Virus record (IMG/VR): IMGVR_UViG_3300042455_000638
DNA length: 64,000 nucleotides
From: a virus
Reading direction: 5' to 3' (one strand)
Positions 1 through 17,577 of the stretch are shown piece after piece; the stretch's first letter is position 1, and the number at the start of each line of letters is the position of its first letter. A program made the translations under genes and the position numbers. The notes under the pieces are model-generated. The model ran no database searches and was not told where the DNA came from. It worked only from the letters and a program-made list of their open reading frames with translations.

Positions 1-219
1 GTCTTCAACAGACACGCTTTCACACTCAACCCAGGCACAGACAGTCTTGTCTTCCCCAGCGAATATCTTGTTGGCAGTTCCTCGCTGGTTCCGCAGTCGG
101 CAGTTGGTCATCCGAAGACTGACCCTGACAGGGTCAGCGTAGAAGACCTGCTCTGGCCCCCGGATCTGCCACATCCGGTAGTTCTCACCAAGGGCCAGGT
201 GAAACCTCACTCTGTACAT
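1..219 (-). CDS. Hypothetical protein, N-terminal part only (gene runs off the left edge)
   Basis: ATG at 217-219 with AGGAG RBS 7 nt upstream (minus sense). Open frame to position 1, translation MYRVRFHLALGENYRMWQIRGPEQ.... Absent from the ORF track only because it has no stop in the window. Confidence 0.4.
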   Translation of the reverse strand, partial: MYRVRFHLALGENYRMWQIRGPEQVFYADPVRVSLRMTNCRLRNQRGTANKIFAGEDKTVCAWVECESVSVED

Positions 220-231
220 GGCAGACTCCTG

Positions 232-648
232 TTATTCGAACTCAGGACCGACACAGTAAAGCTGAGCCAACTCCTCGGCTTGGTCCATCGGCACTGGGCG
301 TTTGGCCCCGTCGAACCAGTCCCGATAGAAGTACTCACACTCGATCAACTCACCTTCATTGTTGAACACGAAGTCAAACCCGTCTGATGGGCCCCCCCAT
401 GACAGCAGGACACGGTACGACTTGCGTACGTCGACAGACAGCACACCTTCCAATGCTCGGTCACGGTGCTTCTCTTGGATCTCCTGTTTAAGGTCATCCA
501 ATGACGAATGGTCCTCCGGGTCGATACCCAGGTCAGAGGCCCACTCAAGGGCTGTGAGCACCTCCATACCGTCCCACTCAGGCAGCAGGTCTTCAAGCCG
601 ACCAGCCAGACGGTCACCAACCAACTCTTCACATTTCTTGTCGGACAT
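232..648 (-). CDS. Hypothetical acidic protein (138 aa)
   Basis: Track ORF. GGAGGTG RBS before ATG at 646-648. Followed by the composite intergenic element at 649-745. Confidence 0.55.
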   Translation of the reverse strand: MSDKKCEELVGDRLAGRLEDLLPEWDGMEVLTALEWASDLGIDPEDHSSLDDLKQEIQEKHRDRALEGVLSVDVRKSYRVLLSWGGPSDGFDFVFNNEGELIECEYFYRDWFDGAKRPVPMDQAEELAQLYCVGPEFE

Positions 649-745
649 GTATCACCTCCAAAATGGTTTGAGAGAACACGATCGGGGGCCACCGCAGTGG
701 CCCCCTGTCACAGTCTCACACCGTCACCAACTGTACTTAGAAGCT
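649..745 (-). repeat. Composite intergenic element, copy 1 (box GAGAACACGATCG + hairpin GGGGCCACCGCAGTGGCCCC + 35-bp box ...CAACTGTACTTA)
   Basis: Same tripartite arrangement as at 3601-3690, 5802-5890 and 6419-6510. Located between the stop of one leftward gene and the RBS of the next. Confidence 0.6.
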
Positions 746-1168
746 ATACTTCCTCAGCGTGGTAATCAGCTCCTCAAGCTCAGCGATCTCAGAGCCAAGG
801 CTGTCGCACTCTTCGATGTTCTCCGCCTCGGACGGGTCCAAGTCTTCGAGCTGCCCTTCCAGGTCGTCGATCTCATCCTGAAGCTCGTCGATCAGAGCGT
901 CTTTGACCCGCTCAAGGTCCCGAAGGTAGAAGTTCCCGCTGCCGAACTCATACAGGTTCTCACTGTCGAGCCAGTCGGAAAACCCGCAGCGGTATGCGAC
1001 CGGATCGCATTCTTCGAGAACCTTGCTCGGCATCATGTGGCTGAAAGGCCCTCCGACTGATGACATGCTGTAACACTCATTGAGCATCTCGTCGTAGAGG
1101 GTATCAACGTCAACCTCAGTCAAGTCGTCCTGAACCTTGTCGTGCAATTCTTTGATGATGTCTCTCAT
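737..1168 (-). CDS. Hypothetical very acidic protein (D/E-rich C-terminal half)
   Basis: Track ORF 737..1249 trimmed to an internal ATG at 1166-1168, which has an AGGAG RBS. ATGA overlap with the upstream gene. Stop lies inside the conserved box ...CAACTGTACTTA. Confidence 0.55.
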   Translation of the reverse strand: MRDIIKELHDKVQDDLTEVDVDTLYDEMLNECYSMSSVGGPFSHMMPSKVLEECDPVAYRCGFSDWLDSENLYEFGSGNFYLRDLERVKDALIDELQDEIDDLEGQLEDLDPSEAENIEECDSLGSEIAELEELITTLRKYSF

Positions 1169-1416
1169 ATAGCGTCCATCTCCTTCTCGATGGTAACTTT
1201 TCGAACCCAAACCACCTCGTGCCACTCTGCGATTCTGTCCGTCATACACTCGCCATTGGAACCTTCCCAGCTAGCGTTGATAACGCCTGTCTCCAAGTTC
1301 AAAGCCGCAACAGCGGGGCATAGCTCTCGCCGCACAACCATGTGGGCTACGCCGTCCACAGTGAAGCAGTCCCCCGGAATCCAATCACTACAATCTTCAC
1401 ACGTAACTTTGTTCAA
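1165..1416 (-). CDS. Hypothetical small Cys-containing protein (83 aa)
   Basis: Track ORF. TGA/ATG overlap (ATGA) with the downstream gene. Confidence 0.5.
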   Translation of the reverse strand: MNKVTCEDCSDWIPGDCFTVDGVAHMVVRRELCPAVAALNLETGVINASWEGSNGECMTDRIAEWHEVVWVRKVTIEKEMDAI

Positions 1417-1787
1417 TTTATTCTCCCCATAAGTCTACGGACAATCTCGTCGTGAGACAGGTTAGACATCAACGCTTCGACTTCTTGCTGTTGTTCCAGC
1501 TCCAACTTCTCAGCGGCTTCCTGCCTGGCCCGCCAAGCGGTTCGCCATTCAGAGAGAGCCAGCTTGCCGATTGAGGTGTCTGACGGGTCCACATAGACGT
1601 AGACCGAGACCTCCCGACCCTGCTTGTCAACGAACACTGGCGAGCCACTGGCTTTCACGACAACAGTGAAGTTGTGCTTGGCCAACCGCTCGACGGTCTC
1701 TTGGTCGTACGTCCCACCGAAGGTCCCTCCGGTGGCCTTCCGGTCGTTCCCGGATAGCCGGGTGTGATAGCAAATGCTCTTGTGCAT
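1413..1787 (-). CDS. Hypothetical protein (about 124 aa)
   Basis: Track ORF 1413..1904 trimmed to ATG 1785-1787 (MHKSICY...). This start packs against the upstream gene's stop at 1789. Confidence 0.45.
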   Translation of the reverse strand: MHKSICYHTRLSGNDRKATGGTFGGTYDQETVERLAKHNFTVVVKASGSPVFVDKQGREVSVYVYVDPSDTSIGKLALSEWRTAWRARQEAAEKLELEQQQEVEALMSNLSHDEIVRRLMGRIN

Positions 1788-1788
1788 G

Positions 1789-2175
1789 TCAGGACGATCT
1801 CCCGTCTTGAGGTAAGTGTGAAAAGTCGCTGTACGTGTCCGGGGCATCGCACTCCGCGTCTGTGTCGTTGGCCCAAGTCCAAAGGTCGTCAGCCTCCACC
1901 TCAACAGCCTCGATACACTGACTCAGTAGATCCGCTGTCAGTTCTGGCCACCCGATGCGGTACGTTGCAGTACCGAAGTTGCAGCCCTCTACGATTGATC
2001 CGATGGATATACCTCCGTCATCAATCGAGATCCAAGCACCGCATGATGTGTGCTTATACATCCGTCTTGCGATTAAGTCGTAGTCTCGGTTGTCATGCTC
2101 AAGGCAGAAGAACTCGTTGAGCAGGACCATACCGTCCTCGTACTCTTGCGAGTATGGAGCGTCTTGTGGGTTCAA
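1789..2175 (-). CDS. Hypothetical acidic protein (128 aa)
   Basis: Track ORF. Tight packing with neighbours. Confidence 0.5.
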   Translation of the reverse strand: MNPQDAPYSQEYEDGMVLLNEFFCLEHDNRDYDLIARRMYKHTSCGAWISIDDGGISIGSIVEGCNFGTATYRIGWPELTADLLSQCIEAVEVEADDLWTWANDTDAECDAPDTYSDFSHLPQDGRSS

Positions 2176-2396
2176 GTGTTCTCCCTCTCGTCAAGTTGGT
2201 CTTTCAAGTCATACATCTCGGACCGTAAGTCCCTCATTTCATCACACTTGTTGTGGTACCACTGCAGATAGGTATCTGCCTCCACCCGAATCATCTTGCA
2301 TTCGGTCTCCAAACCCCGGGCGAAGTCGGCATCGACTACTTCCGAGGTCAAAAGGCCCTTCAGCACCTCCGCGTCTGTTCTGGGTGTACCAGACAT
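2172..2396 (-). CDS. Hypothetical small protein (74 aa)
   Basis: Track ORF. GGAGGG RBS. Located immediately downstream (minus sense) of an intrinsic terminator-like hairpin. Confidence 0.5.
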   Translation of the reverse strand: MSGTPRTDAEVLKGLLTSEVVDADFARGLETECKMIRVEADTYLQWYHNKCDEMRDLRSEMYDLKDQLDERENT

Positions 2397-2400
2397 TCTC

Positions 2401-2459
2401 AGCCCTCCAAAGAAAGACCGCTTGGCGACGGGGGCTAGTCTCCCCCATAAGTCGCCAAG
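2401..2459 (-). terminator. Intrinsic terminator-like nested hairpin for leftward transcription
   Basis: 11-bp stem CGCTTGGCGAC/GTCGCCAAGCG enclosing GGGGG...CCCCC. Followed on the minus strand by GTCTTTCTTTGG. Confidence 0.45.
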
Positions 2460-2562
2460 CGGTGCGTGTTGTAAAGTACTGCAGTAGAACCTCTGGACGC
2501 TGCAGCCCGTCCTCTCGTCTCGTTATGTGCGGCTCCCCCTGTCTGGCAAGACAGGGGCATAC

Positions 2563-2715
2563 CTAACGAAAACCTGCGGGGTAACGCCCACAGACGGTTG
2601 TCCGTTCAGCGACTTCAACAACCGGCTTTCCGCAGACAATCAGCCACAGGGTATTGCCGACCCATGTGACGTCGAGAGCTGCCGGTTGAAGAGTCACCGG
2701 ATCTATGAGTATCAT
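2563..2715 (-). CDS. Unannotated small ORF (50 aa, MILIDPVTLQPAALDVTWVGNTLWLIVCGKPVVEVAERTTVCGRYPAGFR)
   Basis: Below the 60-aa track cutoff. GAGGAGGGAG RBS directly upstream of ATG 2713-2715. Sits between the hairpin at 2748-2761 and the terminator at 2401-2459. Confidence 0.35.
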   Translation of the reverse strand: MILIDPVTLQPAALDVTWVGNTLWLIVCGKPVVEVAERTTVCGRYPAGFR

Positions 2716-2721
2716 ACTCCC

Positions 2722-2775
2722 TCCTCAGTAAAACCTACGAACGAGGACCACCGCAGTGGCCCTCTATCTTAGGAT
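2722..2775 (-). repeat. Partial copy of the intergenic element (hairpin GGACCACCGCAGTGGCCC only)
   Basis: Hairpin family member at 2748-2761, directly after a gene stop. Lacks the 35-bp box. Confidence 0.45.
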
Positions 2776-3180
2776 CTACGAGCAAAAGATCAAGTACAGT
2801 TTACCATCGGACATGAACAGGTTCCCAGAGACGCGACCACGATGAGACTCCTTCTCGTACTCATCCCAGTCGATGCACCAGTTGGTGTCGTCCCAAGCCA
2901 CGCTTTCCGCCTCACGGTAATCCCCGGCAGCGGACTGGATGATCAACGCCTTGGTCTCGTTGTCCGGCCTGCCGTCGATCTCTTCATCCTCCCAGGCTCC
3001 CCATGTCCTGATGTAATCCTTAGCCTCAAGTATCTCTTCAGGCGTCAGAGAAATCAAGTCACAAGCCCCAAGGGCGTTTGCCCATGTGATCTTACCAGCG
3101 TTTGGTCCCAACTCCATCTGTGACGCTGAGAACAGGCTGGCGTCCAACTCTAACAGGAAACTCACGTCAATGTCAACCAT
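2776..3180 (-). CDS. Hypothetical acidic W/D/E-rich protein
   Basis: Track ORF 2776..3216 trimmed to ATG 3178-3180, which has a GAGGAG RBS. Confidence 0.5.
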   Translation of the reverse strand: MVDIDVSFLLELDASLFSASQMELGPNAGKITWANALGACDLISLTPEEILEAKDYIRTWGAWEDEEIDGRPDNETKALIIQSAAGDYREAESVAWDDTNWCIDWDEYEKESHRGRVSGNLFMSDGKLYLIFCS

Positions 3181-3391
3181 CGGTTTTCTCCTCAAAGAAA
3201 TCCAGGACAACACCACGCTTCAAACACTCACGGCATTCACAATAGCTGAAGTCGTCCCAAGTCATATCCCCGATTGGGGTATCAGTACCTTCATCGGTGA
3301 CCAGCATGACAACGTCAACCGCAATGCCGAACGGACCGTAGCTGTCACAACATGGACAACGCATACCCTTCAGGCAATTCTCGTTGGTCAT
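3173..3391 (-). CDS. Small Cys-rich putative zinc-binding protein (CPCC...CECREC)
   Basis: Track ORF trimmed to ATG 3389-3391 with GGAGGAG RBS. ATGA overlap with the next gene. Confidence 0.5.
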   Translation of the reverse strand: MTNENCLKGMRCPCCDSYGPFGIAVDVVMLVTDEGTDTPIGDMTWDDFSYCECRECLKRGVVLDFFEEKTDG

Positions 3392-3600
3392 GGCTCCTCC
3401 CCCGTAACACAGATTGTGCATTCAGCAACTGCCAGGATCTTGTCGTACTGACTGTCCAACAGCAAAACACCTCTCGTCTGGGGCAGGTCAGCAGCGAACA
3501 TCAACCGCTTCAACAGGAAGTAGTCGTAGTTCCTATCCGGCCTCAGGTACCCACTACGTTGAACCAGACGCAGCTCTGTCTCATCTTCGCTACCGAACAT
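3388..3600 (-). CDS. Hypothetical small protein (70 aa)
   Basis: Track ORF. AAAGGAGAAACC RBS. Preceded (minus sense) by the composite intergenic element. Confidence 0.5.
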   Translation of the reverse strand: MFGSEDETELRLVQRSGYLRPDRNYDYFLLKRLMFAADLPQTRGVLLLDSQYDKILAVAECTICVTGEEP

Positions 3601-3690
3601 GGTTTCTCCTTTCTGCCAGAGAACACGAGTGACAAGCCCCGCAGGACTCGTCGGTCACACTCTCTGTCACCGGGGTCAACTGTACTTAGC
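3601..3690 (-). repeat. Composite intergenic element, copy 2
   Basis: GAGAACACGAGTG + stem-loop (ACGAGT...ACTCGT) + GGTCACACTCTCTGTCACCGGGGTCAACTGTACTTA. Its TTA is the stop of the upstream gene. Confidence 0.6.
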
Positions 3691-4273
3691 CTTCCATATC
3701 CTCTACACGGTCACGAATGTCCTCAATACTGTCTTCGAACCATGCGTACGGTACGACTGCAAACCAGCAGGCATCGGTACACTGGTACGTCTCGAACGTG
3801 TTGAACGTCTCAGGCCGGTAGATGCTGCCGATGCAGAAGTCACTACGTGGGTTTTCCCGCTCGGCCAGGACCAGCTCACGGATGTCCTCAACCTCGCAGT
3901 CAAGTTCCTCGGCCAGCATCTTGACCTCAACTTGGTTTTCGACTTCTTCGATGCTGGAGGACCACACTTGGCAACCGGCTTTTGCCTCGTCAACATCGGA
4001 GTTCCGGCGACCACTGAAGCGGTGGCCAGGCTCCATGTCAAACGACCATGCGTCAAACTCATCTACGACCATTCTGGTCTCGTCTGGCGTCCAGTCCGGG
4101 AAGTTGGTCTGGATGTACTCTTCCAAGACGGCCTTGACCCGGTGTGAGTCCTCCACGACGCAGTGCGTGTAGGCATCGCCAGCGTCACCGTGCTTCTCCT
4201 CGTACTCAAGGTGTGACTCGTCACACCGTTTCAGCAACTCACGAAAGCGTTGCTGCAGTTCTGGGTCGGTCAT
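3686..4273 (-). CDS. Hypothetical acidic protein (about 195 aa)
   Basis: Track ORF 3686..4372 trimmed to ATG 4271-4273 with GGAG RBS. ATGA overlap with the upstream gene. Stop is embedded in the conserved box. Confidence 0.5.
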   Translation of the reverse strand: MTDPELQQRFRELLKRCDESHLEYEEKHGDAGDAYTHCVVEDSHRVKAVLEEYIQTNFPDWTPDETRMVVDEFDAWSFDMEPGHRFSGRRNSDVDEAKAGCQVWSSSIEEVENQVEVKMLAEELDCEVEDIRELVLAERENPRSDFCIGSIYRPETFNTFETYQCTDACWFAVVPYAWFEDSIEDIRDRVEDMEG

Positions 4274-4581
4274 GGGTTCTCCAATGGTTTCCAGGAAAAA
4301 CTGCCGAAAGTGCTCAGGCACATGATGCAGTACCGGTACACGTCGTACGGACTGCCGTCTGTTAAGGCACACCGCAGCAGAACGGACATCGGTCCGCTGC
4401 TCCAGTCAGTATCGCTTTCTACAAGTACCCAACTTGGCTCACTCATACCCTGGTCAACAACGTGTAGGTCGTAACCGTACCCGCTTTGACTTCGGAACGA
4501 GCAAACGTACCCCGAGTCGATCCGGGGGTTGCTGTGGATCTTGTTGTCAACGATAGGGAACTTGCGTTCCAACGTACTCAC
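4270..4581 (-). CDS. Hypothetical protein (103 aa)
   Basis: Track ORF. GTG start with GAGGTG RBS. Confidence 0.45.
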   Translation of the reverse strand: MSTLERKFPIVDNKIHSNPRIDSGYVCSFRSQSGYGYDLHVVDQGMSEPSWVLVESDTDWSSGPMSVLLRCALTDGSPYDVYRYCIMCLSTFGSFSWKPLENP

Positions 4582-4649
4582 GTTTCACCTCACTTTCACA
4601 GGTCTGAATGAACACAATACCGGGCCACCGCAATGGCCCGGCGTTACGA
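4582..4649 (-). repeat. Partial copy (box GAACACAATACC + hairpin GGGCCACCGCAATGGCCC)
   Basis: Hairpin at 4621-4638 with the upstream box. The 35-bp box is absent. Confidence 0.45.
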
Positions 4650-5312
4650 TCACTCAGGACTGCCGTTCTCGTCAAACTCGTACTCGTTGGCGATGATATT
4701 CTCGGCAACAACTTCATCGCTGGTCAACCAGTCATGGTCTTTCTCAAGTCTGTTGTACAACCAGTCGGCCAACCATCGCAGGTTGTTCTCCACGACCGTT
4801 TCACGATCACGGTCCTCCATCTGTTCCCATTCGCCCTCCGAATTCTCGAAGTCGTTGAACTCGAACCGCATGGTGTGAGAGTGTGAGTACCGGCCAGTGG
4901 TTGTGATGTCCACTCGACACGTTGCGTTGTACGGTTCGACAAAGTCCACGAACAGACACGCAGCGATGTTGTGCAGGTCCGTATCCAGAGGAGCATACTC
5001 TTTGATCTTCTCGACCATGTCGAGCTTGCCCCGGAAGCAACCCTCGAAGCTGGCTCCATCACCCTGTGACCAGAAACCACTGAACTGGATGTTGGGCTTT
5101 TGACGAGTACCGCCACCCATAAGTTTCACAGGGCTGGTACTCAGCTCAACCCCGAGGATCTTGCAGACCTCTACGAAGTCATCGTAGACACTGTCCCACC
5201 ACTCGTAGTCAAGCCCACCATCCATGCCGAGATACCACTCACGGGCTTTCTGTTTTGCACTGTCCGACAGTTCTTCGTACTTGAAGACCTCTGTCACTTT
5301 GTTACGCGGCAT
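4650..5312 (-). CDS. Hypothetical highly acidic protein (220 aa)
   Basis: Track ORF. GAGGAGG RBS. Acidic, W/F-rich composition. No family recognised with certainty. Confidence 0.5.
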   Translation of the reverse strand: MPRNKVTEVFKYEELSDSAKQKAREWYLGMDGGLDYEWWDSVYDDFVEVCKILGVELSTSPVKLMGGGTRQKPNIQFSGFWSQGDGASFEGCFRGKLDMVEKIKEYAPLDTDLHNIAACLFVDFVEPYNATCRVDITTTGRYSHSHTMRFEFNDFENSEGEWEQMEDRDRETVVENNLRWLADWLYNRLEKDHDWLTSDEVVAENIIANEYEFDENGSPE

Positions 5313-5491
5313 TTTGTCCTCCTCGTAATAAACATCTTGGCGGCTCGTAGGGTCACCGCCGGTTTAACCAAGTACGTCTCAGGATCTTGGACCGTGACCA
5401 CCTCTCGGCTGGAGACTCCAGGTACTCGCTCATGATGAACGTGAATCCAGTAGCCCTTGTACCGAATGGTGTAGAAACATTCTTTGACCAT
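5294..5491 (-). CDS. Hypothetical small basic protein (about 66 aa)
   Basis: Trimmed to ATG 5489-5491, preceded by AGGAGGTTCACA. The identical 16-nt RBS/start context recurs at 5801. Confidence 0.4.
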   Translation of the reverse strand: MVKECFYTIRYKGYWIHVHHERVPGVSSREVVTVQDPETYLVKPAVTLRAAKMFITRRTKCRVTK

Positions 5492-5501
5492 TGTGAACCT
5501 C

Positions 5502-5801
5502 CTACGCTGAGTACCGGTGGCCTGAAGTTCGAACAGCACCTCCACGCATGATGTGCATCAAAGCTGGACCGTTCAAGCTGTGCTGGGAACAGGCCACGCC
5601 TGGACACTCAGGTCTGTCAATGAAGAACGGAATGTGCCCGGAGCCTGCCTCGAAGTACAGGGCAGGTGGCATAACCTTGTTGCCAATCATAACCCGGATC
5701 GCACGGTTCGGCTCTATGACGTTACACCGCACACCATCAACACAGATTGACGTTGTGGAGTACACTTCCACTTCAGGCTTGTTTGCCAAGCTCCAGACCA
5801 T
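5502..5801 (-). CDS. Hypothetical protein (99 aa)
   Basis: Track ORF. AGGAGG RBS. Preceded (minus sense) by the composite intergenic element. Confidence 0.5.
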   Translation of the reverse strand: MVWSLANKPEVEVYSTTSICVDGVRCNVIEPNRAIRVMIGNKVMPPALYFEAGSGHIPFFIDRPECPGVACSQHSLNGPALMHIMRGGAVRTSGHRYSA

Positions 5802-5890
5802 TGTGAACCTCCTTTCTGAGAGAACACGATCGACGAGCCTCGCAAGGCTCGTCTGTCACACACTCTCACCGGGGTCAACTGTACTTACTC
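5802..5890 (-). repeat. Composite intergenic element, copy 3
   Basis: GAGAACACGATCG + hairpin GACGAGCCTCGCAAGGCTCGTC + TGTCACACACTCTCACCGGGGTCAACTGTACTTA. Confidence 0.6.
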
Positions 5891-6418
5891 TTCTACGTCT
5901 TCAACCTTGTAGATTGGGTATGGTGCCTCACCGTCTTCAAACCAGTCTGGACCCAGACAATACGTCTTAGGCCCGGTTGGACAAGGATTGCCAAGATGAC
6001 CGGCTCCGGGAGCACACGGACTGCAGAACTGAGCGTGAGTGTAGAAGGGACTCTTCAACACCCACACATCACCATCCTGAGCCAGCTTGAGGAAGTACCC
6101 GTCGCCTTCAAACTCCCACGGGCCACCCTCCTGACAGTCGTGCCACTCCACGTTGCCGATGATCTCAGCAGCCAGCTCGTCAGGATCACCAACCTGACCG
6201 TACGGGTCAATGGCCGCTGCAATGGCTCGTGCCAGCTCGTCTTTGGCCTGGTCACGCATGTTCTCAAAGCCGACATCAGTACCTTGTGTAATGAGGTCAT
6301 CAAGTGCTTCGGGCATCACGTCGTGCTGACTGATGACCCCATAGCGTATTCCGGTCACATGATCTCGGTTCGTCTGGCCAAGACCGTAGTCAATGCCAGT
6401 GTAGCTGGTCTCTTCCAA
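5885..6418 (-). CDS. Hypothetical acidic Cys-rich protein
   Basis: Track ORF 5885..6481 begins at a GTG inside the upstream hairpin. The likely start is TTG 6416-6418, 6 nt after GGAGGAG. That gives the same hairpin-box-RBS-start order seen in the other intergenic units. Confidence 0.4.
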   Translation of the reverse strand: MEETSYTGIDYGLGQTNRDHVTGIRYGVISQHDVMPEALDDLITQGTDVGFENMRDQAKDELARAIAAAIDPYGQVGDPDELAAEIIGNVEWHDCQEGGPWEFEGDGYFLKLAQDGDVWVLKSPFYTHAQFCSPCAPGAGHLGNPCPTGPKTYCLGPDWFEDGEAPYPIYKVEDVEE

Positions 6419-6510
6419 TGTAATCTCCTCCAAAGGTTCGAAAGTACACGATTGGGAACCACCGCAATGGCTCCCTGTCACACACTCTCAACCGGGGTCA
6501 ACTGTGTTTT
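6419..6510 (-). repeat. Composite intergenic element, copy 4
   Basis: AAGTACACGATTG + hairpin GGAACCACCGCAATGGCTCC + TGTCACACACTCTCAACCGGGGTCAACTGTG. Confidence 0.6.
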
Positions 6511-6941
6511 CAATTACTCCCGTCAAGGTTATGTCCACAATGCTCACACTTAGTGGTGTTCCACTGCTGGCCTTCTTCCATAACGTGGAAGTGACCACAG
6601 TACCCACAGCGAACAGCGTTGAACTGCTCAAACACCCAACGCTCCTGCTCCTCGTACCAGTCACCCCACGTTGTGACGACCAGCTTGACCCCGTTGACGT
6701 AGTCATCGGTCAGCATCAGTGTCGTTGAGTACGTGTCACCGGTGTTCAGGTATGCGGCTGTCGGACCTTCACTGAACGAGCTACACAGGTCCGCGTAGTT
6801 GTCCAGTTCAATGTACTCGATACCGAAGTGGTCCGCCTTCATCAGCTTGGCGATACGGCGAAACGCATCGTCCTTACTGGTGTTGAGCGAGTTGGCCCAC
6901 TCGACCATTCGTTCGAGTTGGGCGTCAAAATGGTCACACAC
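6510..6941 (-). CDS. Hypothetical protein with C-terminal zinc ribbon (CGYCGH...CEHCGH)
   Basis: Track ORF. GTG start with GAGGTGA RBS. Confidence 0.5.
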   Translation of the reverse strand: MCDHFDAQLERMVEWANSLNTSKDDAFRRIAKLMKADHFGIEYIELDNYADLCSSFSEGPTAAYLNTGDTYSTTLMLTDDYVNGVKLVVTTWGDWYEEQERWVFEQFNAVRCGYCGHFHVMEEGQQWNTTKCEHCGHNLDGSN

Positions 6942-6949
6942 ATTTCACC

Positions 6950-7165
6950 TCACTTTGCAAGGCATTCAGGTAGTTCGTTCTTAATGGCATCAACGCAGAC
7001 TTGGGCCAACCTCCCAGCGTCCTCGCCAGACAGGACAAAACGATGATTGGTATCGTCCAGTTCACGGAACACTGCTGTCCATACGTTGGACAGCATGATC
7101 TCAGCTACTGTGTCGATCCCGGCCTTCAGCCTGTCATCACAGGCGTCGTAGTTGGGCCGCTTCAT
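6950..7165 (-). CDS. Hypothetical small protein
   Basis: Trimmed to ATG 7163-7165 with GGAGGT RBS. Confidence 0.45.
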   Translation of the reverse strand: MKRPNYDACDDRLKAGIDTVAEIMLSNVWTAVFRELDDTNHRFVLSGEDAGRLAQVCVDAIKNELPECLAK

Positions 7166-7167
7166 TG

Positions 7168-7470
7168 TTACAACCTCCAAACTTGAGCCATGAGACATTG
7201 CGAGGCATAAGCCACACTTTCCCGGTCCGTCATGAAGACGAATAGCCCCCGGTGAGTCCGGTACCCGTCGATCCACGAAAAGCAGGCCGCTTTCCGTGTC
7301 TCGCCTTCTTTGTTCGTCAGCAGGACGAATGACCTGCCAACCGGGGGAACCCAGTCGTCAGGGCACACTGGTATGTCATGCTGAAGAAAGGTGTCGGCAT
7401 CCCCATGTGCGTAGTGCCACGACGGGTTGTACGGACAGCCTTCCTTGTAATAGTGAAACAGCTCCTTCAT
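7168..7470 (-). CDS. Hypothetical protein (100 aa)
   Basis: Track ORF, packed against neighbours. Confidence 0.45.
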   Translation of the reverse strand: MKELFHYYKEGCPYNPSWHYAHGDADTFLQHDIPVCPDDWVPPVGRSFVLLTNKEGETRKAACFSWIDGYRTHRGLFVFMTDRESVAYASQCLMAQVWRL

Positions 7471-7534
7471 GGTTTAACTCCACAAGCGGAATTGCTTGAA
7501 CGAATGCCGGTGACCCCGGCACTCTATCGAACAA

Positions 7535-7822
7535 TCACTCCTCGCGTCTCCACTCAAGGTAACACGTACCCCTGTAGTTGTTATTCTTCATGGACCACAC
7601 CTCTTCCACGTATGACTCGTCACCGACAATCAGCAGCACTCTGCGTCCGCTGGCCATCGTAATAGCCGTACAAGGATAGAACTGGTCGAGCCACTGACGA
7701 GCTTCGAAGTACTCTTTGTTCTTCAAGGCGTAGTCGTCCTCACCTGCTTCAGGCTCAACGAACACCTGACTGTACGGCACCTTGTCAGCCGTAGTCTTCT
7801 TGGTTGACTTTCTCAGAGCCAC
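7535..7822 (-). CDS. Hypothetical protein (95 aa)
   Basis: Track ORF. GTG start after GGAGGTGAGCT. Confidence 0.45.
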   Translation of the reverse strand: MALRKSTKKTTADKVPYSQVFVEPEAGEDDYALKNKEYFEARQWLDQFYPCTAITMASGRRVLLIVGDESYVEEVWSMKNNNYRGTCYLEWRREE

Positions 7823-7839
7823 AGCTCACCTCCGCTTTC

Positions 7840-8070
7840 TTATTCCATGTAGAACGGGTCAGGCACCACAGGACGAACTCGTGTTGAAACGTCCAAGATG
7901 GTATCGGCCACCAGCTCAGGTGAGCTGTATGTCTTGATCTCACTGGTAGGACCATCGTCAAGCCAGCACGCAGTCTCTGCGTGAGGCATATCAGAAGTAC
8001 CCCATCGCACTGACACGGTCCACCCATTACTAAATGTAATGTGGAAGCCGTTGCTATTCAGTCTGAACAT
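7840..8070 (-). CDS. Hypothetical small protein
   Basis: Trimmed to ATG 8068-8070 after AGAAAGCGGAGGG. The AGAAAGCGGAGG context also recurs near 7835 and 8145. Confidence 0.4.
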   Translation of the reverse strand: MFRLNSNGFHITFSNGWTVSVRWGTSDMPHAETACWLDDGPTSEIKTYSSPELVADTILDVSTRVRPVVPDPFYME

Positions 8071-8099
8071 ACACCCTCCGCTTTCTGTCGGCATCGTCG

Positions 8100-8140
8100 C
8101 CGGACACAATCAATCACCGCTCCCAACTGTACTTACCCTT
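8100..8140 (-). repeat. Degenerate copy of the 35-bp box (..CACCGCTCCCAACTGTACTTACC)
   Basis: Box fragment at the head of the leftward gene array, not attached to a coding stop. Confidence 0.35.
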
Positions 8141-8222
8141 TCCGCTTTCTTAGTACTACGGTCAGGGGGAGAATTCATATCCTTACAATGTGTAATTTTC
8201 AATGGAAAGAACAGTTCAGAAT

Positions 8223-8238
8223 GGTGAGTGATTGTAGA
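8223..8238 (+). promoter_or_regulatory. 16-mer GGTGAGTGATTGTAGA, copy 1
   Basis: 15 of 16 identical with 9069-9084. Both lie about 75-100 bp upstream of rightward gene starts. Shared -35-like cAGTT(C/G) 18 nt upstream of gattgTAGA. Confidence 0.4.
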
Positions 8239-8325
8239 CACCGACAACCAAACGTCGATACACTGGACAGCCCCGACAGGCGTCTGTCGGGACTGACGAA
8301 CAACACTGGAACGAAAGACAGAACA

Positions 8326-9054
8326 ATGATTGGAACCGCAGTAGATGATAGAACATTCACGGAACGCCCCGCCCCGATCCATCTGGGACACTACCGAACC
8401 AGGCCGACAAATGCTGCAATACTGGTAGCAATCGCTGCTGCTCGAAAAATGCCAGGTGGGATCGGCAAGGCGATTGCGAACGTCTCAGGGACTCGCCAGT
8501 TGACTTGCCGAGTGTTTCCGGACGTTGAACCGGATCGAGACGAACAGCCCCGCCTGGAGGACGTGGAAACCCCTGGACAGCATGACGGACCGGCCCCGAC
8601 TGTAGACTACAGCGGACGCCCAACAACAAGGCAGGCCGATAGACCGTATCTCATCTGGTGGGCAATGTTGCAACAACCAGCAAAAGATATGATTGCAGAA
8701 CTACAACCGCACGACAGAGACGACATCAGACAAGACCTTGCGATAAAATACTGGAGGCAGGCAGTAAAACAGGAAGCTGCGGGGAACCGCATCACAAACC
8801 CAGTCCCATTCGTCGCAAAGGCAGTTTCGGCCTGGATAGGCCGGAATACTGGGATTGCCGAAGTAAACCCGCTAACGCAGCAGCAGAGAGAAGACGCCGT
8901 CGACGCACTTGACGCACAGAGGAAAGCGGCGGAAGAATCCCGACTGCAAGCACTTGACGCAGAATTGGCAATCGTACAAGCACGATTCCACGCAGCAACA
9001 ATTGCTAAACTGGACGCAAAGAAACCGGAATCAGTATTCTGCTTCAAATGGTAA
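8326..9054 (+). CDS. Hypothetical protein; C-terminal about 130 aa coiled-coil and HTH-like (start uncertain, alternative ATG at 8662)
   Basis: Long track ORF 8041..9054. The N-terminal third lies in an AT-rich promoter-like region. The C-terminal half (AIKYWRQAVKQEAAGNRITNPVPFVAKAVSAWIGRNTG...) is convincingly protein-like. Confidence 0.35.
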   Translation: MIGTAVDDRTFTERPAPIHLGHYRTRPTNAAILVAIAAARKMPGGIGKAIANVSGTRQLTCRVFPDVEPDRDEQPRLEDVETPGQHDGPAPTVDYSGRPTTRQADRPYLIWWAMLQQPAKDMIAELQPHDRDDIRQDLAIKYWRQAVKQEAAGNRITNPVPFVAKAVSAWIGRNTGIAEVNPLTQQQREDAVDALDAQRKAAEESRLQALDAELAIVQARFHAATIAKLDAKKPESVFCFKW

Positions 9055-9068
9055 GAACAGTTGCCGAC

Positions 9069-9084
9069 GGTGAATGATTGTAGA
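9069..9084 (+). promoter_or_regulatory. 16-mer GGTGAATGATTGTAGA, copy 2 (promoter-like, -10 TAGAGT)
   Basis: See copy 1. Immediately followed by a perfect inverted repeat. Confidence 0.4.
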
Positions 9085-9111
9085 GTCCCGGTCTCAATGT
9101 GAGACCGGGAC
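9085..9111 (+). promoter_or_regulatory. Perfect 12-bp inverted repeat GTCCCGGTCTCA-ATG-TGAGACCGGGAC (operator or transcript 5' hairpin)
   Basis: Perfect palindrome overlapping the TAGAGT -10-like hexamer. No U-tract follows, so it is unlikely to be a simple terminator. Confidence 0.45.
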
Positions 9112-9144
9112 CAACACGACAAACAAACAGTAAAGGTTAATACG

Positions 9145-9678
9145 ATGACATTCGAACAACTACGGGATTCTCTGATCGCAGACGGACTTTCCCCCGATAT
9201 GGCTTCCCAAATTGCTGCAAAGCAATTGGGACGACTCCAGGCCGAACTGGCGGCCGTCCAGGAACAAGCCCGTAAACAGGCAGAAGAAGCAGCAGGGATT
9301 GCGGACTGGTGCGGACTCCGGGTGACAAAACTTGGCTCAAATGGTAGGCCGACATCCTACACGATTGCGGCGGAAAACGGTGTCGCAGCAGAACCGCCTA
9401 AACTTGGAACCGATGAAAACGGAGCGGGTACGTTCTTTCCGGGATACCTTTGGATCGCTCGAAACAAGGAGAAACTACAGAACATCCCGCAATCGGTATG
9501 CAATACCATCCACAACCTGCTCCAAAGCGAGCAGGGAATTGAAGTGTTGAAACATGCTACCTCGTTTGCGTCCAATGCAGGACTGGCGGCCTACGCCACC
9601 AAACGGAAAGAACTAATTGCAGCCGGAACCGTAGCGGACTGGAACCGCAGCGGAAAGAAAGCCAAAGCAAAAGCCTAG
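9145..9678 (+). CDS. Hypothetical protein (177 aa)
   Basis: Track ORF. AAAGG RBS. Preceded by a perfect 12-bp inverted repeat and followed by another. Confidence 0.5.
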   Translation: MTFEQLRDSLIADGLSPDMASQIAAKQLGRLQAELAAVQEQARKQAEEAAGIADWCGLRVTKLGSNGRPTSYTIAAENGVAAEPPKLGTDENGAGTFFPGYLWIARNKEKLQNIPQSVCNTIHNLLQSEQGIEVLKHATSFASNAGLAAYATKRKELIAAGTVADWNRSGKKAKAKA

Positions 9679-9700
9679 ACAGACCCCACGCCACGCCTCG

Positions 9701-9734
9701 CAGGGTATCACCGGTGAAAACTGGTGATACCCTG
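9701..9734 (+). terminator. Inverted repeat CAGGGTATCACC...GGTGATACCCTG after gene stop (terminator or operator)
   Basis: 12-bp perfect arms, 12 nt after the TAG of the 9145-9678 gene. Weak T-tract. Confidence 0.35.
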
Positions 9735-9812
9735 TTCGCATTGGTAGACAGGGATTGCAAGCATTACCAGGCGGACCAGGTAAGCAAACAAATGGACCTG
9801 GACAAACATCGG

Positions 9813-9855
9813 GTAGGCCGCATACGTCGGCTGTGCTGTGCTGTGCTTTTTCTCT
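9813..9855 (+). terminator. Weak hairpin + (GCTGT)3 + T5
   Basis: GGCCGCATACGTCGGC followed by GCTGTGCTGTGCTGTGCTTTTTCTC. Confidence 0.25.
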
Positions 9856-10058
9856 TATATTACACGCCATTTCCAGTATATTGGAGGTGGCTGGACGGTA
9901 ACCCGCTACGTCAGTCCCGTTAAAACCTAGGATTGCCAGTGTTTTCCGCTCTTTCCTGCCATCCGGGGCAATGCCAGGGAAGTTAAGCCCAAATTCAGAC
10001 CGGGGCATCCTGGTCCTTACAGGGTCCTCTAGGCTATTTGGTAACCCAGCCACCTTTT

Positions 10059-10316
10059 TCACGTTTTTCCAAATCCTTACAAGTGACCCTTGGTAAAAGT
10101 TTTGCGTACCGGTACCCCCAGCACAGCCGTATATCCGCTTCACGTTTTTCCAAATCCTTACAAGTGACCCTTGGTAGAAGTTTTGTCCAACCTACGTCTC
10201 ACCCGGTAAAAGTTTTGCGTACCGGTACCTCCAGACTGGCTGCCTGCCGCCACGTCCTGTGACTGCCTGTTGAAGGTGAGACCTTGTTGGGGTTTTGCAT
10301 ACCGGCTCCACACGTC
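10059..10316 (+). repeat. Iteron-like direct repeats, candidate origin or regulatory locus
   Basis: 46-bp unit TTCACGTTTTTCCAAATCCTTACAAGTGACCCTTGGTA(A/G)AAGTTTTG at 10067 and 10139 (period 72 bp). Sub-repeat AAGTTTTGCGTACCGGTACC at 10098, 10208 and a degenerate copy at 10296. Contains palindrome GTACCGGTAC. Confidence 0.55.
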
Positions 10317-10388
10317 TGGCCGGGCCTTGACAGGCCCGACCGAGCTGGCGATGATGGCAGCGGCTTATCCCCTCAACGGAGACCAGAT

Positions 10389-10712
10389 ATGACCCCGAGA
10401 GCAAAGACCCTCTACTACCTTGGCTTTACCTCCTACAAAGCCTACCTACGGTCTGCATTGTGGAAATGGATCAGGGAGAAGGTTTTCAAGCAGAAGGGCC
10501 GTACGTGTGCCCTGTGCAGCCGTAGAGCCACTCAGATCCACCATCGGTCTTATGACCGTCTAACGCTCAGAGGGATCATCCTGGACTATCTGGAGCCCAT
10601 GTGCAGCGGTTGCCACCGTATGATCGAGGTGACACCATCAGGCCGCAAGAGGAAGCGGGCGGCTGTGGAGCGGATGTTCGTCAGGCTTAAACGAAAAAAG
10701 CTGGCCCGTTGA
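10389..10712 (+). CDS. HNH endonuclease
   Basis: CALCSRRATQIHHRSY...CSGCHRM matches the HNH C-x2-C...HH...C-x2-C-H pattern. GGAG RBS. Stop lies inside a bidirectional terminator. Confidence 0.6.
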   Translation: MTPRAKTLYYLGFTSYKAYLRSALWKWIREKVFKQKGRTCALCSRRATQIHHRSYDRLTLRGIILDYLEPMCSGCHRMIEVTPSGRKRKRAAVERMFVRLKRKKLAR

Positions 10713-10726
10713 GGCCAGCTTTACTT
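10692..10726. terminator. Bidirectional intrinsic terminator
   Basis: A6 - AGCTGGCC - loop - GGCCAGCT - TTTACTT. Sits where a rightward gene and the leftward operon converge. Confidence 0.6.
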
Positions 10727-11000
10727 AATGCAGATACTTGTAGAGAAGTGTTTACTTATCGTCACTCAACGCACACCTCCGCTTCGACAAACTCGCCCGG
10801 GCCACCGATGTCGCCCGAGCTGCGTACCACGTTAAACCACTGCATCGTCAACCTTTCGTATGTAAGCGTCATTGACCACGACACACTCAACAGTCTGTCT
10901 CACCGCGATCCAGACGTAGCAGCCGAGGTAGAATGGGACGAACCCGACGTTGAAAAGTCTCAACATCCAAATCGGTATCCATTGCATGTTGGGGTGGAGA

Positions 11001-17512: not shown

Positions 17513-17548
17513 ATCAACCTCCGAATAAAATGTGAATGTCACCGGGCG

Positions 17549-17577
17549 TATCATCGCCCCGGTAAGACTTTTGTCAA
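17549..17577 (-). promoter_or_regulatory. Candidate leftward sigma70-like promoter (TTGACA-17-ATGATA) for the MazG operon
   Basis: Minus-sense TTGACAaaagtcttaccggggcgATGATA, about 35 nt upstream of the MazG-like start. The -10 is embedded in hairpin CACCGGGCG...CGCCCCGGTG. Confidence 0.35.

What the first reader, a model, noticed from the sequence alone, without database searches (positions are those of the whole stretch)
649..6510. Recurring tripartite intergenic element (box + hairpin + 35-bp box) punctuating the leftward early-gene array
At least four full copies (649-745, 3601-3690, 5802-5890, 6419-6510) and three partial copies (2722-2775, 4582-4649, 8100-8140) share one architecture. 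Read in the direction of transcription, the order is: stop codon of gene N (the TAA is the last triplet of ...CAACTGTACTTA); the conserved 35-bp sequence GTAAGTACAGTTGACCCCGGTGAGAGTGTGTGACAG; a GC-rich hairpin (GGGCCACCGCARTGGCCC family or equivalent, GNRA-like loop); then CGATCGTGTTCTC; then SD; then the start of gene N+1.

The hairpins lack U-tracts, so they are not terminators. The 35-bp box contains GTTGAC, reminiscent of a -35, but no canonical sigma70 -10 at 17 bp. Candidates are phage-specific promoters (the phage encodes its own ECF-type sigma factor at 11782-12303), RNase III/E processing and 5'-stabilising hairpins as in T7-like early regions, or a mobile MITE-like insertion. The embedded stop codon argues for a selected functional module rather than random repeats.
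Basis: seen in the sequence. Interest (0 to 1): 0.7.

Follow-up and report, generated by a model that had tools for sequence, protein, structure and literature searches.

The report
Recurring RNA hairpin between phage genes
The repeats are real: a strictly conserved 52-nt RNA hairpin, often preceded by a short lineage-specific box, fills the gaps between groups of small genes in an uncultivated temperate phage, and most likely marks where the long messenger RNA is cut and stabilised rather than where transcription starts.

Summary
The "tripartite" element has two parts.

(1) A two-tier RNA hairpin: a 13-bp lower stem, a 2x2 internal loop, a 9-bp upper stem and a UGCG tetraloop.

(2) A 12-16-nt upstream "box1" that begins with the upstream gene's stop codon.

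A covariance model finds 7 hairpins in the window, all on the sense strand of the leftward genes and none elsewhere in the 64 kb. It finds 74-75 distinct copies in more than 20 related viral or metagenomic contigs. Of the cells, 93% are paired, against 38-47% in slid controls, and 19 of 22 pairs show compensatory changes. Conserved G.U pairs make the fold sense-strand specific.

No Rfam family matches. There is no sigma70 -10 element and no fixed spacing. No phage RNA polymerase gene was found. The complete hairpin is not followed by a U-tract. Canonical promoters and U-tract terminators occur elsewhere in the same genome.

The best reading is an intercistronic RNA processing and stability signal of the T7 RNase III-site type (confidence about 0.45). 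Box1 is lineage-specific and also heads both divergent operons. Its role is unresolved: an RNA site, a stoperator-like DNA site or an unusual promoter.

The parts
663..726 (-). Hairpin copy A. The paired region is 669-720. It has a UGCG loop and a class-1 lower stem.
   Evidence: The model scores 73.4 bits on the minus strand against 22.7 on the plus strand. Fold.
728..739 (-). Box1 of copy A, TAAGTACAGTTG. The TAA at 737-739 is the stop codon of ORF 737-1249.
2722..2785 (-). Hairpin copy P1, without box1. The stop codon TAG of ORF 2776-3216 lies in the 5' arm.
   Evidence: The model scores 54.2 bits. Stop position. The 'inverted box' at 2791-2805 is conserved coding sequence (GKLY) and is a coincidence.
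3610..3673 (-). Hairpin copy B.
   Evidence: 63.2 bits. Compared with the orthologue in L003/L004, one upper-stem pair changes C-G to U-A and another changes G.U to G-C.
3677..3688 (-). Box1 of copy B. The TAA at 3686-3688 is the stop codon of ORF 3686-4372.
4599..4662 (-). Hairpin copy P2 (class 2, no box1). The stop codon TGA of ORF 4650-5312 lies in the 5' arm.
   Evidence: 72.3 bits. Stop position.
5811..5874 (-). Hairpin copy C.
   Evidence: 70.9 bits. Fold z = -3.0.
5876..5887 (-). Box1 of copy C. The TAA at 5885-5887 is the stop codon of ORF 5885-6481.
6433..6496 (-). Hairpin copy D.
   Evidence: 73.1 bits.
6499..6512 (-). Variant box1 of copy D (TGAAAACACAGTTG). The TGA at 6510-6512 is the stop codon of ORF 6510-6941.
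7481..7545 (-). Degenerate family member: loop GGUCA and lower stem GAUUG/CAAUU. It is the orthologue of copies in L005 and L007 that carry box1, and the L007 copy also has the UGCG loop.
   Evidence: 21.5 bits, E = 0.0025. Comparison with L005 2831 and L007 8590.
8086..8137 (-). Head of the leftward operon. It contains box1 (8124-8135, preceded by GG at 8136-8137), GGTGATTGATTGTG, and a non-family hairpin (8086-8106). The Shine-Dalgarno sequence and the ATG at 8070 follow.
   Evidence: It is nearly 100% conserved in L004 while the flanks diverge.
8201..8238 (+). Rightward copy of the box (AATGGAAAGAACAGTTCAGAATGGTGAGTGATTGTAGA) at the head of the rightward operon. It lies back-to-back with the 8124-8135 copy.
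   Evidence: Repeat family D6..
8272..8291 (+). Hairpin CCCGACAG-GCGU-CUGUCGGG in the rightward leader. L004 has a different hairpin at the same place.
9047..9112 (+). Second rightward copy. Box1 at 9052-9063 starts with the TAA stop of gene 8326-9054. An 11-bp hairpin follows at 9086-9112.
   Evidence: z = -5.45. One search shows the conserved ...CFKW C-terminus ending in the box.

Best explanation
**Shown.** The core of the element is a cis-acting structured RNA in the sense transcript of the leftward gene array.
- It is a 52-nt hairpin of fixed geometry: a 13-bp lower stem with three conserved consecutive G.U/U.G pairs, a 2x2 internal loop, a 9-bp upper stem and a nearly invariant UGCG tetraloop.
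- It occupies almost every untranslated spacer of 60-90 nt between blocks of overlapping genes.
- It starts at or just after the upstream stop codon. It ends a median of about 8 nt before the next Shine-Dalgarno sequence.

**Inferred mechanism.** The hairpin is an intercistronic processing and stability signal of the kind known from the RNase III sites of phage T7.
- A double-strand-specific endonuclease, the host RNase III or a phage-encoded equivalent, binds the roughly two-turn helix.
- It cuts at or next to the internal loop, which lies 9-11 bp below the tetraloop.
- The upstream mRNA is left with a protective 3' hairpin.
- The downstream mRNA is left with a short unstructured leader (UCGUGU...SD).
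- The long polycistronic RNA is thereby divided into independently stable and translatable units.
- The invariant UGCG loop, the invariant A-U pair and the 3'-strand UYGUGU indicate sequence-specific recognition beyond mere helix formation.

**Box1, inferred and weaker.** The upstream box reads TAAGTACAGTTG...CCGG in this phage and ATAGCAGGTCCGG or other types in relatives, with a common core CAGKT-N2-4-GCCSG.
- It is a separate, portable, lineage-specific recognition sequence.
- It supplies the stop codon for whatever gene lies upstream.
- It is probably read by a phage-encoded factor.
- It is not a sigma70-type promoter.
For: **Structure.**
- In a gapless alignment of 25 copies from 4 genomes, 93.8% of cells pair, against 38-48% when partners are slid. 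18 of 22 pairs have compensatory changes, and 0 of 500 shuffles reach the observed values.
- With 75 distinct copies from more than 20 contigs, 93.0% of cells pair. The upper helix is 99.3% paired and all 9 of its pairs covary.

**Strand.**
- Conserved U.G, G.U, U.G pairs occupy columns 15-17/48-50 of the first alignment.
- The model scores 54-77 bits on the sense strand and at most 23 bits on the opposite strand.
- The sense strand folds better in 73 of 74 copies, with mean energies of -26.5 against -18.3 kcal/mol.

**Sequence constraints.**
- The loop is UGCG in 71 of 75 copies.
- The A19-U47 pair is present in 75 of 75.
- The 3' strand UYGUGU is 91-100% conserved, while its 5' partners vary.

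**Placement.**
- The upstream stop codon lies in box1 or in the 5' arm. The Shine-Dalgarno sequence lies a median of 2 nt, and the start codon 14 nt, after the model end.
- In the fully gene-called relative L027, all eight early-array spacers of 65-92 nt carry the hairpin. Gene junctions without one overlap or are under 10 nt, apart from two longer gaps.

**Fit to RNase III substrates (PMC1540722).**
- Substrates typically have two helical turns.
- Internal loops limit cleavage to one strand and leave protective 3' hairpins.

**Against a terminator.** U-tract terminators exist elsewhere in the same genome, at 10697-10722 and 2572-2595.

**Against a promoter.**

**Box1 is portable and lineage-specific.** The hairpin at L005 4605-4668 differs from window copy C at one position, the 3' member of the loop-closing pair, and has the same 3' arm and Shine-Dalgarno region. 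Its box is ATAGCAGGTCCGG instead of TAAGTACAGTTG.
Against: - No cleavage, transcript end or host is known. The phage is uncultivated, and the host could not be identified: the genome-contig scan gave only chance hits.
- E. coli RNase III needs no particular loop sequence (PMC1540722). The invariant UGCG and UYGUGU are therefore not explained by RNase III alone and may point to a different protein.
- No RNase or RNA-binding domain was detected in any of the roughly 20 early proteins.
- Box1 also occurs with non-family hairpins at the heads of both divergent operons (8124-8135 minus strand, 8206-8217 plus strand). The best sigma70-like candidate for rightward transcription (TAGACA-18-TACACT, 8235-8264) lies downstream of the rightward box1. 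If that promoter is real, that copy would not be in the sense RNA, which favours a DNA-level role for box1.
- A hairpin that merely blocks exonucleases or Rho, or insulates ribosome-binding sites, would look the same in sequence data.
Confidence: 0.45

Rival explanations
1. Box1 is the binding site of a phage-encoded regulator.
- One version is a DNA site that blocks or controls RNA polymerase in an orientation-dependent way. That would make it stoperator-like, silencing the array in the prophage.
- The other version is an RNA site that, with the adjacent hairpin, loads an antitermination factor (nut-like).
- In both versions the hairpin is an independent RNA element.
For: - Box1 is short (12-16 nt), asymmetric and always co-oriented with the genes. 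This holds for 7 of 7 copies in the window and for all copies in relatives.
- Each lineage has its own consensus, with at least 5 types, while the hairpin is shared.
- Two copies lie back-to-back about 80 bp apart, measured between their CAG cores, in the divergent control region of both the window and L007, although the spacer sequences are unrelated.
- They flank a conserved palindrome, TTACAATGTGTAA, at 8183-8195.
- The phage is temperate, with a serine integrase at 21649-23199.
- The adjacent divergent gene R1 (8326-9054) is conserved in all relatives but evolves fast. It is 64% identical in the relative with the same box type and 30-34% identical in relatives with the other type.
- Stoperators have these same properties: they are oriented with transcription, some lie in promoters, and their consensus is lineage-specific (PMC6550527).
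Against: - Only 7 copies exist, confined to about 9 kb. Stoperators number about 30 and are spread over the genome.
- R1 has no recognisable DNA- or RNA-binding domain or fold.
- There is no boxA consensus. The first leftward gene product (76 aa; the first 60 residues are shown) has no arginine-rich N-terminus of the N-protein kind; this rests on my own reading of that sequence, not on a formal test.
- Many nut sites per operon would be unprecedented.
- The tight adjacency of box1 to a hairpin is not explained by a DNA roadblock.
Confidence: 0.2
2. Box1, with or without the 5' arm of the lower stem, is a promoter. It would be recognised by host RNA polymerase carrying a phage factor, either the sigma-like protein at 11782-12303 or R1. 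Each transcript would start just upstream of the hairpin, or inside it. A start just upstream would give every mRNA a protective 5' stem-loop.
For: - The box heads both divergent operons and recurs inside them, always pointing at the next gene.
- In the window the distance from CAGTT to TGTG is 21 nt in 6 of 8 copies of this box type (7 in the window, 1 in L004).
- TA(A/G) is conserved even where no gene precedes the box (8124-8137; L007 7864 and 7795).
- A weak sigma-like gene is present.
- In T7, several phage promoters are directly followed by RNase III sites. This comes from general knowledge of T7 and was not tested here.
Against: - No -10 or -35 match was found at any consistent spacing (and inspection).
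- In relatives the distance from box1 to the next conserved block ranges from 9 to 23 nt.
- No phage RNA polymerase is present. The 864-aa ORF is a low-complexity, fibre-like protein, and no D-x-D-G-D motif occurs in any large ORF. The L027 early region has only small genes.
- Canonical TTGACA-17-TAnnnT promoters serve other operons.
- 30 of 74 hairpins have no box1.
- The box is not ECF-like, because the AAC/CGTC pattern is not conserved across lineages.
Confidence: 0.12
3. The hairpins are leaky terminators or attenuators. The whole unit would be a PeSL-like regulatory cassette whose main evolutionary effect is to serve as a portable linker for shuffling genes.
For: - The upper stem is GC-rich with a stable tetraloop. 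Its 3' flank is moderately U-rich (AUUGUGUUCA, UUCGUGU), and P2 was flagged as terminator-like.
- The array is hyperplastic: none of its roughly 20 proteins has a Pfam family.
- Gene 5502-5801 is missing from L004, L027 and L030 exactly downstream of the element. In the window it is flanked by an 18-nt repeat that includes the Shine-Dalgarno sequence and ATGGTC.
- L004 carries a D-type hairpin at the C position, 95% identical to D.
- PeSLs are promoter plus stem-loop cassettes that mediate such shuffling (PMC2839356, PMC4122927).
Against: - The U/C-rich 3' flank is base-paired with covariation, with 10 of 13 lower-stem pairs compensatory. After the complete hairpin comes a purine-rich Shine-Dalgarno region, not a U-tract.
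- The fold depends on G.U pairs, so it would be weak as a DNA cruciform.
- The order is box then hairpin, the reverse of terminator then promoter.
- Some indels, such as window 1168-2396 compared with L004, are not bounded by elements.
- True U-tract terminators occur in the same array, at 2418-2462 and 2572-2595.
Confidence: 0.1
4. The element is a mobile, MITE-like insertion with no function for the phage.
For: It is a repeated element of about 90 bp that contains an inverted repeat.
Against: - There are no target-site duplications or perfect terminal repeats.
- Every copy is on the sense strand, bounded exactly by a stop codon and a Shine-Dalgarno sequence.
- Copies are kept at orthologous junctions in genomes whose proteins are only 53-77% identical, with compensatory substitutions.
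- No transposase is present.
Confidence: 0.03

Closest known systems
RNase III processing sites of phage T7 (R0.3, R1.1 and others)
   Same: - Both are a family of related hairpins recurring between genes of a polycistronic phage transcript.
- Both have about two helical turns divided by an internal loop into upper and lower stems.
- Both are capped by a stable tetraloop and lie just upstream of the next ribosome-binding site.
- The expected outcome is also the same: a 3' hairpin on the upstream RNA and a short leader on the downstream one. The features of RNase III substrates come from PMC1540722. The T7 layout comes from general knowledge.
   Different: - There is no sequence similarity and no Rfam hit.
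- The internal loop here is symmetric 2x2.
- The loop sequence is nearly invariant (UGCG) and one strand (UYGUGU) is sequence-constrained. E. coli RNase III does not require either.
- The host, the enzyme and the cleavage itself are unknown.
- The phage is temperate, siphovirus-like and about 67 kb, and has no RNA polymerase of its own.
PeSL cassettes of T4-type phages (promoter-early stem-loop)
   Same: - Both are composite conserved intergenic cassettes that punctuate hyperplastic arrays of small ORFan genes.
[quoted passage not shown]
- Both are associated with gene gain, loss and swapping between close relatives (PMC2839356, PMC4122927).
   Different: - PeSLs have a recognisable strong sigma70 promoter, and their stem-loop is a tested terminator placed upstream of that promoter.
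- Here no promoter consensus exists, the box precedes the hairpin, and the hairpin is a long G.U-containing RNA helix without a U-tract.
Stoperators of Cluster A mycobacteriophages (L5, Bxb1)
   Same: Box1 is a short asymmetric motif co-oriented with transcription. It is found in intergenic gaps and at the early control region. Its consensus differs between related temperate phages (PMC6550527, PMC9283540).
   Different: - There are only about 7 copies, confined to one 9-kb region, rather than about 30 spread across the genome.
- Box1 is always followed by an RNA hairpin.
- No repressor has been identified.
Lambdoid nut sites (boxA plus the boxB hairpin)
   Same: A linear box followed by a hairpin lies in the leader of both divergent early operons and again after the first rightward gene.
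   Different: - There is no boxA consensus and no GNRA-like pentaloop.
- No N-like arginine-rich protein was found.
- There are many copies per operon.
- The hairpin is the conserved part and the box is lineage-specific, the reverse of lambda.

Membership tests
Bacterial RNase III substrate (T7 R-site type) | A double-helical RNA of about two turns (at least about 20 bp) in the transcript. | tested here: met
   There are 22 covarying base pairs plus a 2x2 loop, at constant length in 75 copies. The fold is sense-strand specific.
Bacterial RNase III substrate (T7 R-site type) | An internal loop or bulge that can restrict cleavage to one strand, at least 11 bp from the hairpin loop. | tested here: inconclusive
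   A conserved 2x2 internal loop lies 9 bp below the tetraloop, so the first lower-stem pair is 11 helix steps away. This geometry is compatible with the rule in PMC1540722, but the rule is derived from the E. coli enzyme only.
Bacterial RNase III substrate (T7 R-site type) | Site-specific cleavage by RNase III. | not testable with these tools
   No transcript data are available, and the host is unknown.
Intrinsic (Rho-independent) terminator | A GC-rich hairpin followed immediately by an unpaired U-tract. | tested here: not met
   The 3' flank (AUCGUGUUCUCUC) pairs with the 5' arm, with covariation. The complete hairpin is followed by the Shine-Dalgarno region. Genuine U-tract sites occur at 10697-10722 and 2572-2595.
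Sigma70-type promoter | -35 and -10 hexamers separated by 16-18 bp. | tested here: not met
   The consensus scan finds none in any class-1 element. TTGAC is present in only 3 window copies and has no -10 partner. It is absent from the other box types.
Single-subunit (T7-like) or other phage RNA polymerase promoter | A phage-encoded RNA polymerase gene. | tested here: not met
   No large ORF of the window has an RNA polymerase family hit or catalytic motif. The roughly 3 kb missing from the window is covered by L027, where it holds only small genes and an SNF2 helicase gene.
PeSL cassette | A strong sigma70 early promoter plus a terminator stem-loop. The cassettes flank indels between close relatives. 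| tested here: not met
   The promoter and terminator parts are not met (see the rows above). The association with indels is partly seen: loss of gene 5502-5801 and a hairpin swap in L004. Other indels are not bounded by elements.
Stoperator (Cluster A mycobacteriophage) | An asymmetric site of about 13 bp, oriented with transcription, with a lineage-specific consensus. | tested here: met
Stoperator (Cluster A mycobacteriophage) | Tens of sites spread through the whole genome and bound by the immunity repressor. | tested here: not met
   Distribution: only 7 sites, all within 700-9100 of the 64 kb. Repressor binding is not testable with these tools.
Lambda-type nut site | The boxA consensus, a boxB hairpin with a GNRA-like pentaloop, and an N protein with an arginine-rich motif. 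| tested here: not met
   Neither the box nor the loop sequences match. The first leftward product (76 aa; first 60 residues shown) has no arginine-rich N-terminus, by my own reading of that sequence.
MITE / small mobile element | Terminal inverted repeats, target-site duplication, and presence/absence of the element alone. | tested here: not met
Any Rfam 15 family | A covariance-model match. | tested here: not met
   There were no hits at gathering score over 64 kb. Over 1-10500 at E <= 5 there was no relevant hit.

The most novel reading that the evidence does not exclude
The hairpin is not a generic RNase III site. It would be the dedicated recognition site of a still unidentified phage-encoded, or phage-redirected, RNA-binding or RNA-cutting protein that reads the invariant UGCG loop and the UYGUGU strand. 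Box1 would be a co-evolving, lineage-specific specificity determinant.

Together they would form a previously undescribed 'operon punctuation' system. It would control processing, antitermination or silencing of a hyperplastic gene array in a widespread lineage of temperate aquatic phages. It would also act as the portable linker through which new genes are plugged in.
Probability: 0.2. Interest if true: 0.7.

Novelty: new variant of a known kind. Interest (0 to 1): 0.5.

Why it matters
- It adds a well-supported structured RNA family to the short list of known cis-acting RNAs in phage operons. The family has 75 distinct copies, strong covariation, and is absent from Rfam.
- It comes from an uncultivated phage lineage, where the motif is more conserved than the proteins it separates.
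- If the hairpin is a processing site, T7-style mRNA punctuation is used by temperate phages that depend on host RNA polymerase.
- The lineage-specific box1 offers a handle for finding the cognate regulator, whether repressor, antiterminator or nuclease.
- The fixed layout (stop codon, box, hairpin, Shine-Dalgarno sequence) is a natural insulated gene-cassette linker. That bears on phage genome mosaicism and may be useful in synthetic operon design.
- It is not a new principle. Analogous cassettes are known in T7 and in T4-type phages.

Tried and rejected
- **Close cultured relatives.** Megablast of window 1-9000 and tblastn of the terminase against 50,697 phage records found no match.
- **Host identification.** The motif scan of 185,579 species genomes gave 6 hits. 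All are chance matches, with only 2-6 of 9 stem pairs. No tRNA genes were found.
- **R1 (8326-9054) as a candidate box1-binding protein.** 15 homologues were found, all hypothetical. There was no PDB sequence match. The AlphaFold model is helical, with pLDDT 60.6. The best Foldseek E-value was 0.88, which is uninformative. A visual resemblance of 'DDIKQDLALKYWRQ' to sigma region 2 was not supported.
- **864-aa ORF at 53885-56479 as a possible YonO-like or T7-like RNA polymerase.** It is a low-complexity fibre-like protein without a D-x-D-G-D motif.
- **ECF-type reading of the box (AAC...CGTC).** The pattern is not conserved across lineages. An apparent GTAAAC...GTCTAA motif near 23.7 kb has 20-nt spacing and is unique.
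- **The 'inverted box' at 2791-2805 next to P1.** It is conserved coding sequence (GKLY), so the match is a coincidence.
- **Integron attC, ops/RfaH, boxA resemblance of the 3' arm, and 16S rRNA mimicry of CUGCGGU.** I considered each by eye. The matches are partial or lineage-restricted, so I did not pursue them.
- **Pairing of box1 with the Shine-Dalgarno sequence** (CCCC with GGAGG in copy C). It is not conserved in the other copies.

Full report
**1. The observation.**

The region was read on both strands.

The 12-mer TAAGWACAGTTG occurs five times with at most one mismatch, against 0.35 expected. They are 82% identical to each other over 38 nt, and each lies upstream of a rightward gene.

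**2. Anatomy.**

Folding the sense strand shows that the GC-rich hairpin is only the top of a longer structure.

The element therefore has two parts:
- box1, about 12-16 nt, beginning with the upstream stop codon;
- a 52-nt two-tier hairpin with a 13-bp lower stem, a 2x2 internal loop, a 9-bp upper stem and a UGCG loop.

On the transcribed strand the loop is of the UNCG type, not GNRA-like.

**3. Relatives.**

No cultured phage is related. IMG/VR holds several genomes of about 67 kb from the same lineage, at 92%, 77% and 53% protein identity for the 4650-5312 product.

These relatives show that the window is a permuted 64-kb piece of a genome of about 67 kb. The leftward array continues past position 1 for about 2.7 kb and then meets the window's right end.

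UGCG-capped hairpins recur in all relatives, always on the sense strand and just before a Shine-Dalgarno sequence.

**4. The structure is proven by covariation.**

25 copies from four genomes align without gaps. In that alignment, 93.8% of cells pair, against 38-48% when partners are slid. 18 of 22 pairs show compensatory changes, and no shuffle of 500 reaches the observed values.

A covariance model was built from them. Its results were as follows:
- It finds seven copies in the window and none elsewhere in the 64 kb.
- A metagenome scan returned 22 stretches, and every one of the 20 non-redundant stretches re-searched with the model held at least one strong copy.
- With 75 distinct copies, the upper helix is 99.3% paired and all nine of its pairs covary. 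Ten of 13 lower-stem pairs are compensatory.

Several results show the fold belongs to the sense RNA rather than to a DNA cruciform or an antisense RNA:
- Three consecutive conserved wobble pairs occur in the lower stem.
- The model scores 54-77 bits on the sense strand and at most 23 bits on the antisense strand.
- The sense fold is better in 73 of 74 copies.

Sequence constraints go beyond pairing:
- The loop is UGCG in 71 of 75 copies.
- One A-U pair is invariant.
- The 3' strand UYGUGU is conserved while its partners vary.

No Rfam family matches.

**5. Placement.**

The upstream ORF ends in box1 or inside the 5' arm in every copy whose upstream ORF could be identified. The Shine-Dalgarno sequence begins a median of 2 nt, and the start codon 14 nt, after the model end.

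In the gene-called relative L027, each of the eight early-array spacers of 65-92 nt holds a hairpin. The other gene junctions overlap or are shorter than 10 nt, apart from two longer gaps. The hairpins therefore separate blocks of translationally coupled genes.

None of about 20 array proteins has a Pfam family.

**6. What the hairpin is not.**

It is not an intrinsic terminator. Its U/C-rich 3' flank is paired, and the complete hairpin is followed by the purine-rich ribosome-binding site. Textbook U-tract terminators occur in the same genome.

It is not part of a sigma70 promoter. There is no -10 element, and canonical TTGACA-17-TAnnnT promoters serve other operons.

No phage RNA polymerase gene exists in the window or in the missing segment as seen in L027.

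It is not a MITE.

**7. Most likely mechanism.**

Three features define bacterial RNase III processing signals, as known from T7 (PMC1540722; the T7 layout is from general knowledge):
- a helix of about two turns;
- an internal loop 9-11 bp below a tetraloop;
- an intercistronic position.

Cleavage there would leave a protective 3' hairpin on the upstream RNA and a short open leader on the downstream RNA.

I commit to this reading at about 0.45. The RNA-level nature of the element itself is close to certain. The invariant loop and the UYGUGU strand are not needed by E. coli RNase III. They leave room for a dedicated factor.

**8. Box1.**

Box1 is separable from the hairpin:
- 30 of 74 hairpins lack it.
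- It also occurs with unrelated hairpins at the heads of both divergent operons and after the first rightward gene.
- In both the window and L007, two copies lie back-to-back about 80 bp apart, although the spacers are unrelated.

Its consensus is lineage-specific, with at least five types sharing a core CAGKT-N2-4-GCCSG. An almost identical hairpin can carry a different box in a relative.

In relatives, the spacing from box1 to the lower stem varies from 9 to 23 nt. That argues against a bipartite promoter.

These properties suggest recognition by a phage-encoded factor. The closest analogues are stoperators (PMC6550527) and nut sites, but defining features of both fail (see the membership table).

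The fast-evolving divergent gene R1 is a candidate partner. It gave no informative domain or fold.

**9. Evolutionary side.**

The element includes stop codons in all three frames (read from the sequence) and its own Shine-Dalgarno region, so any gene can be placed on either side of it.

Two observations in L004 fit this:
- L004 lacks gene 5502-5801, which in the window lies exactly downstream of copy C.
- L004 carries a D-type hairpin at the C position.

This resembles PeSL-mediated shuffling in T4-type phages (PMC2839356, PMC4122927). Not all indels are bounded by elements, however.

A distant relative, L009, has a different recurrent hairpin family in its array. Hairpin punctuation of such arrays therefore seems general, with lineage-specific forms.

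**10. Verdict.**

This is a genuine, strongly supported, previously uncatalogued phage RNA motif with a composite architecture. Functionally it is most like T7 RNase III sites. The promoter reading is weakened and the MITE reading is rejected. The role of box1 stays open. I rate interest as moderate, at 0.5.

Noticed in passing
window 9680-10380 and 17540-18190: Two long non-coding stretches are rich in repeated words of the type GGTAAAAGTTTTG and GGTAAGA(C/T)TTTT. They include near-identical 47-nt (10058-10104, 10139-10185) and 30-nt (10092-10121, 10205-10234) direct repeats. They could be origin, iteron or partition-like regions.
   Followed up: no
window 2396-2595 (minus strand): The leftward array contains a non-coding gap with two terminator-like hairpins followed by U-tracts, at 2418-2462 (followed by UCUUUCUUU) and 2572-2595. 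The 80 nt at 2396-2475 are 98.75% identical to L004 while the flanks are 75-90% identical. The array is probably not a single transcription unit.
   Followed up: partly
window 8183-8195: A palindrome, TTACAATGTGTAA, lies in the 68-bp spacer between the two back-to-back box1 copies and is conserved in L004. It is a candidate operator. It contains a TACAAT that could be a rightward -10. Overlapping sigma70-like candidates also lie at 8231-8264 (TCGACG-16-TACAAT leftward, TAGACA-18-TACACT rightward).
   Followed up: partly
window 5486-5503 and 5796-5813: An 18-nt direct repeat, AGGAGGTTCACAATGGTC (Shine-Dalgarno sequence plus the first two codons), flanks gene 5502-5801. That gene is absent from relatives L004, L027 and L030. 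It looks like a gene indel produced by recombination at the ribosome-binding site.
   Followed up: partly
L009 4813-7434: A distantly related phage has a different recurrent intergenic hairpin, GGGGACAYTTGTCCCC. Six copies occur 390-800 nt apart in its equivalent gene array.
   Followed up: no
window 8326-9054: The first rightward gene (R1, 242 aa) is present in all relatives but evolves fast, at 64% and then 30-34% identity. Its N-terminus is disordered and variable, and its C-terminal half is helical. It always ends ...CFKW, with its stop codon inside box1. It has no known domain or fold.
   Followed up: yes
window 1 and 64000: Relatives show that the window is circularly permuted. The leftward array runs off position 1 and, after about 2.7 kb not in the window (more small genes, at least one more hairpin, and an SNF2 helicase gene), joins the window's right end.
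   Followed up: partly
window 17830-17858, about 43170-43200, 57468-57496: Good canonical promoters are present: TTGACA-17-TACTAT, TAGACA-17-TACAAT and TTGACA-17-TAGAGT. The unknown host therefore uses a standard sigma70 consensus.
   Followed up: no
window 10697-10727: A bidirectional U-tract/A-tract terminator lies at the convergent junction. On the minus strand it is preceded by TAAGTAAAGCTG, which differs from box1 by two mismatches. This is probably a coincidence.
   Followed up: no
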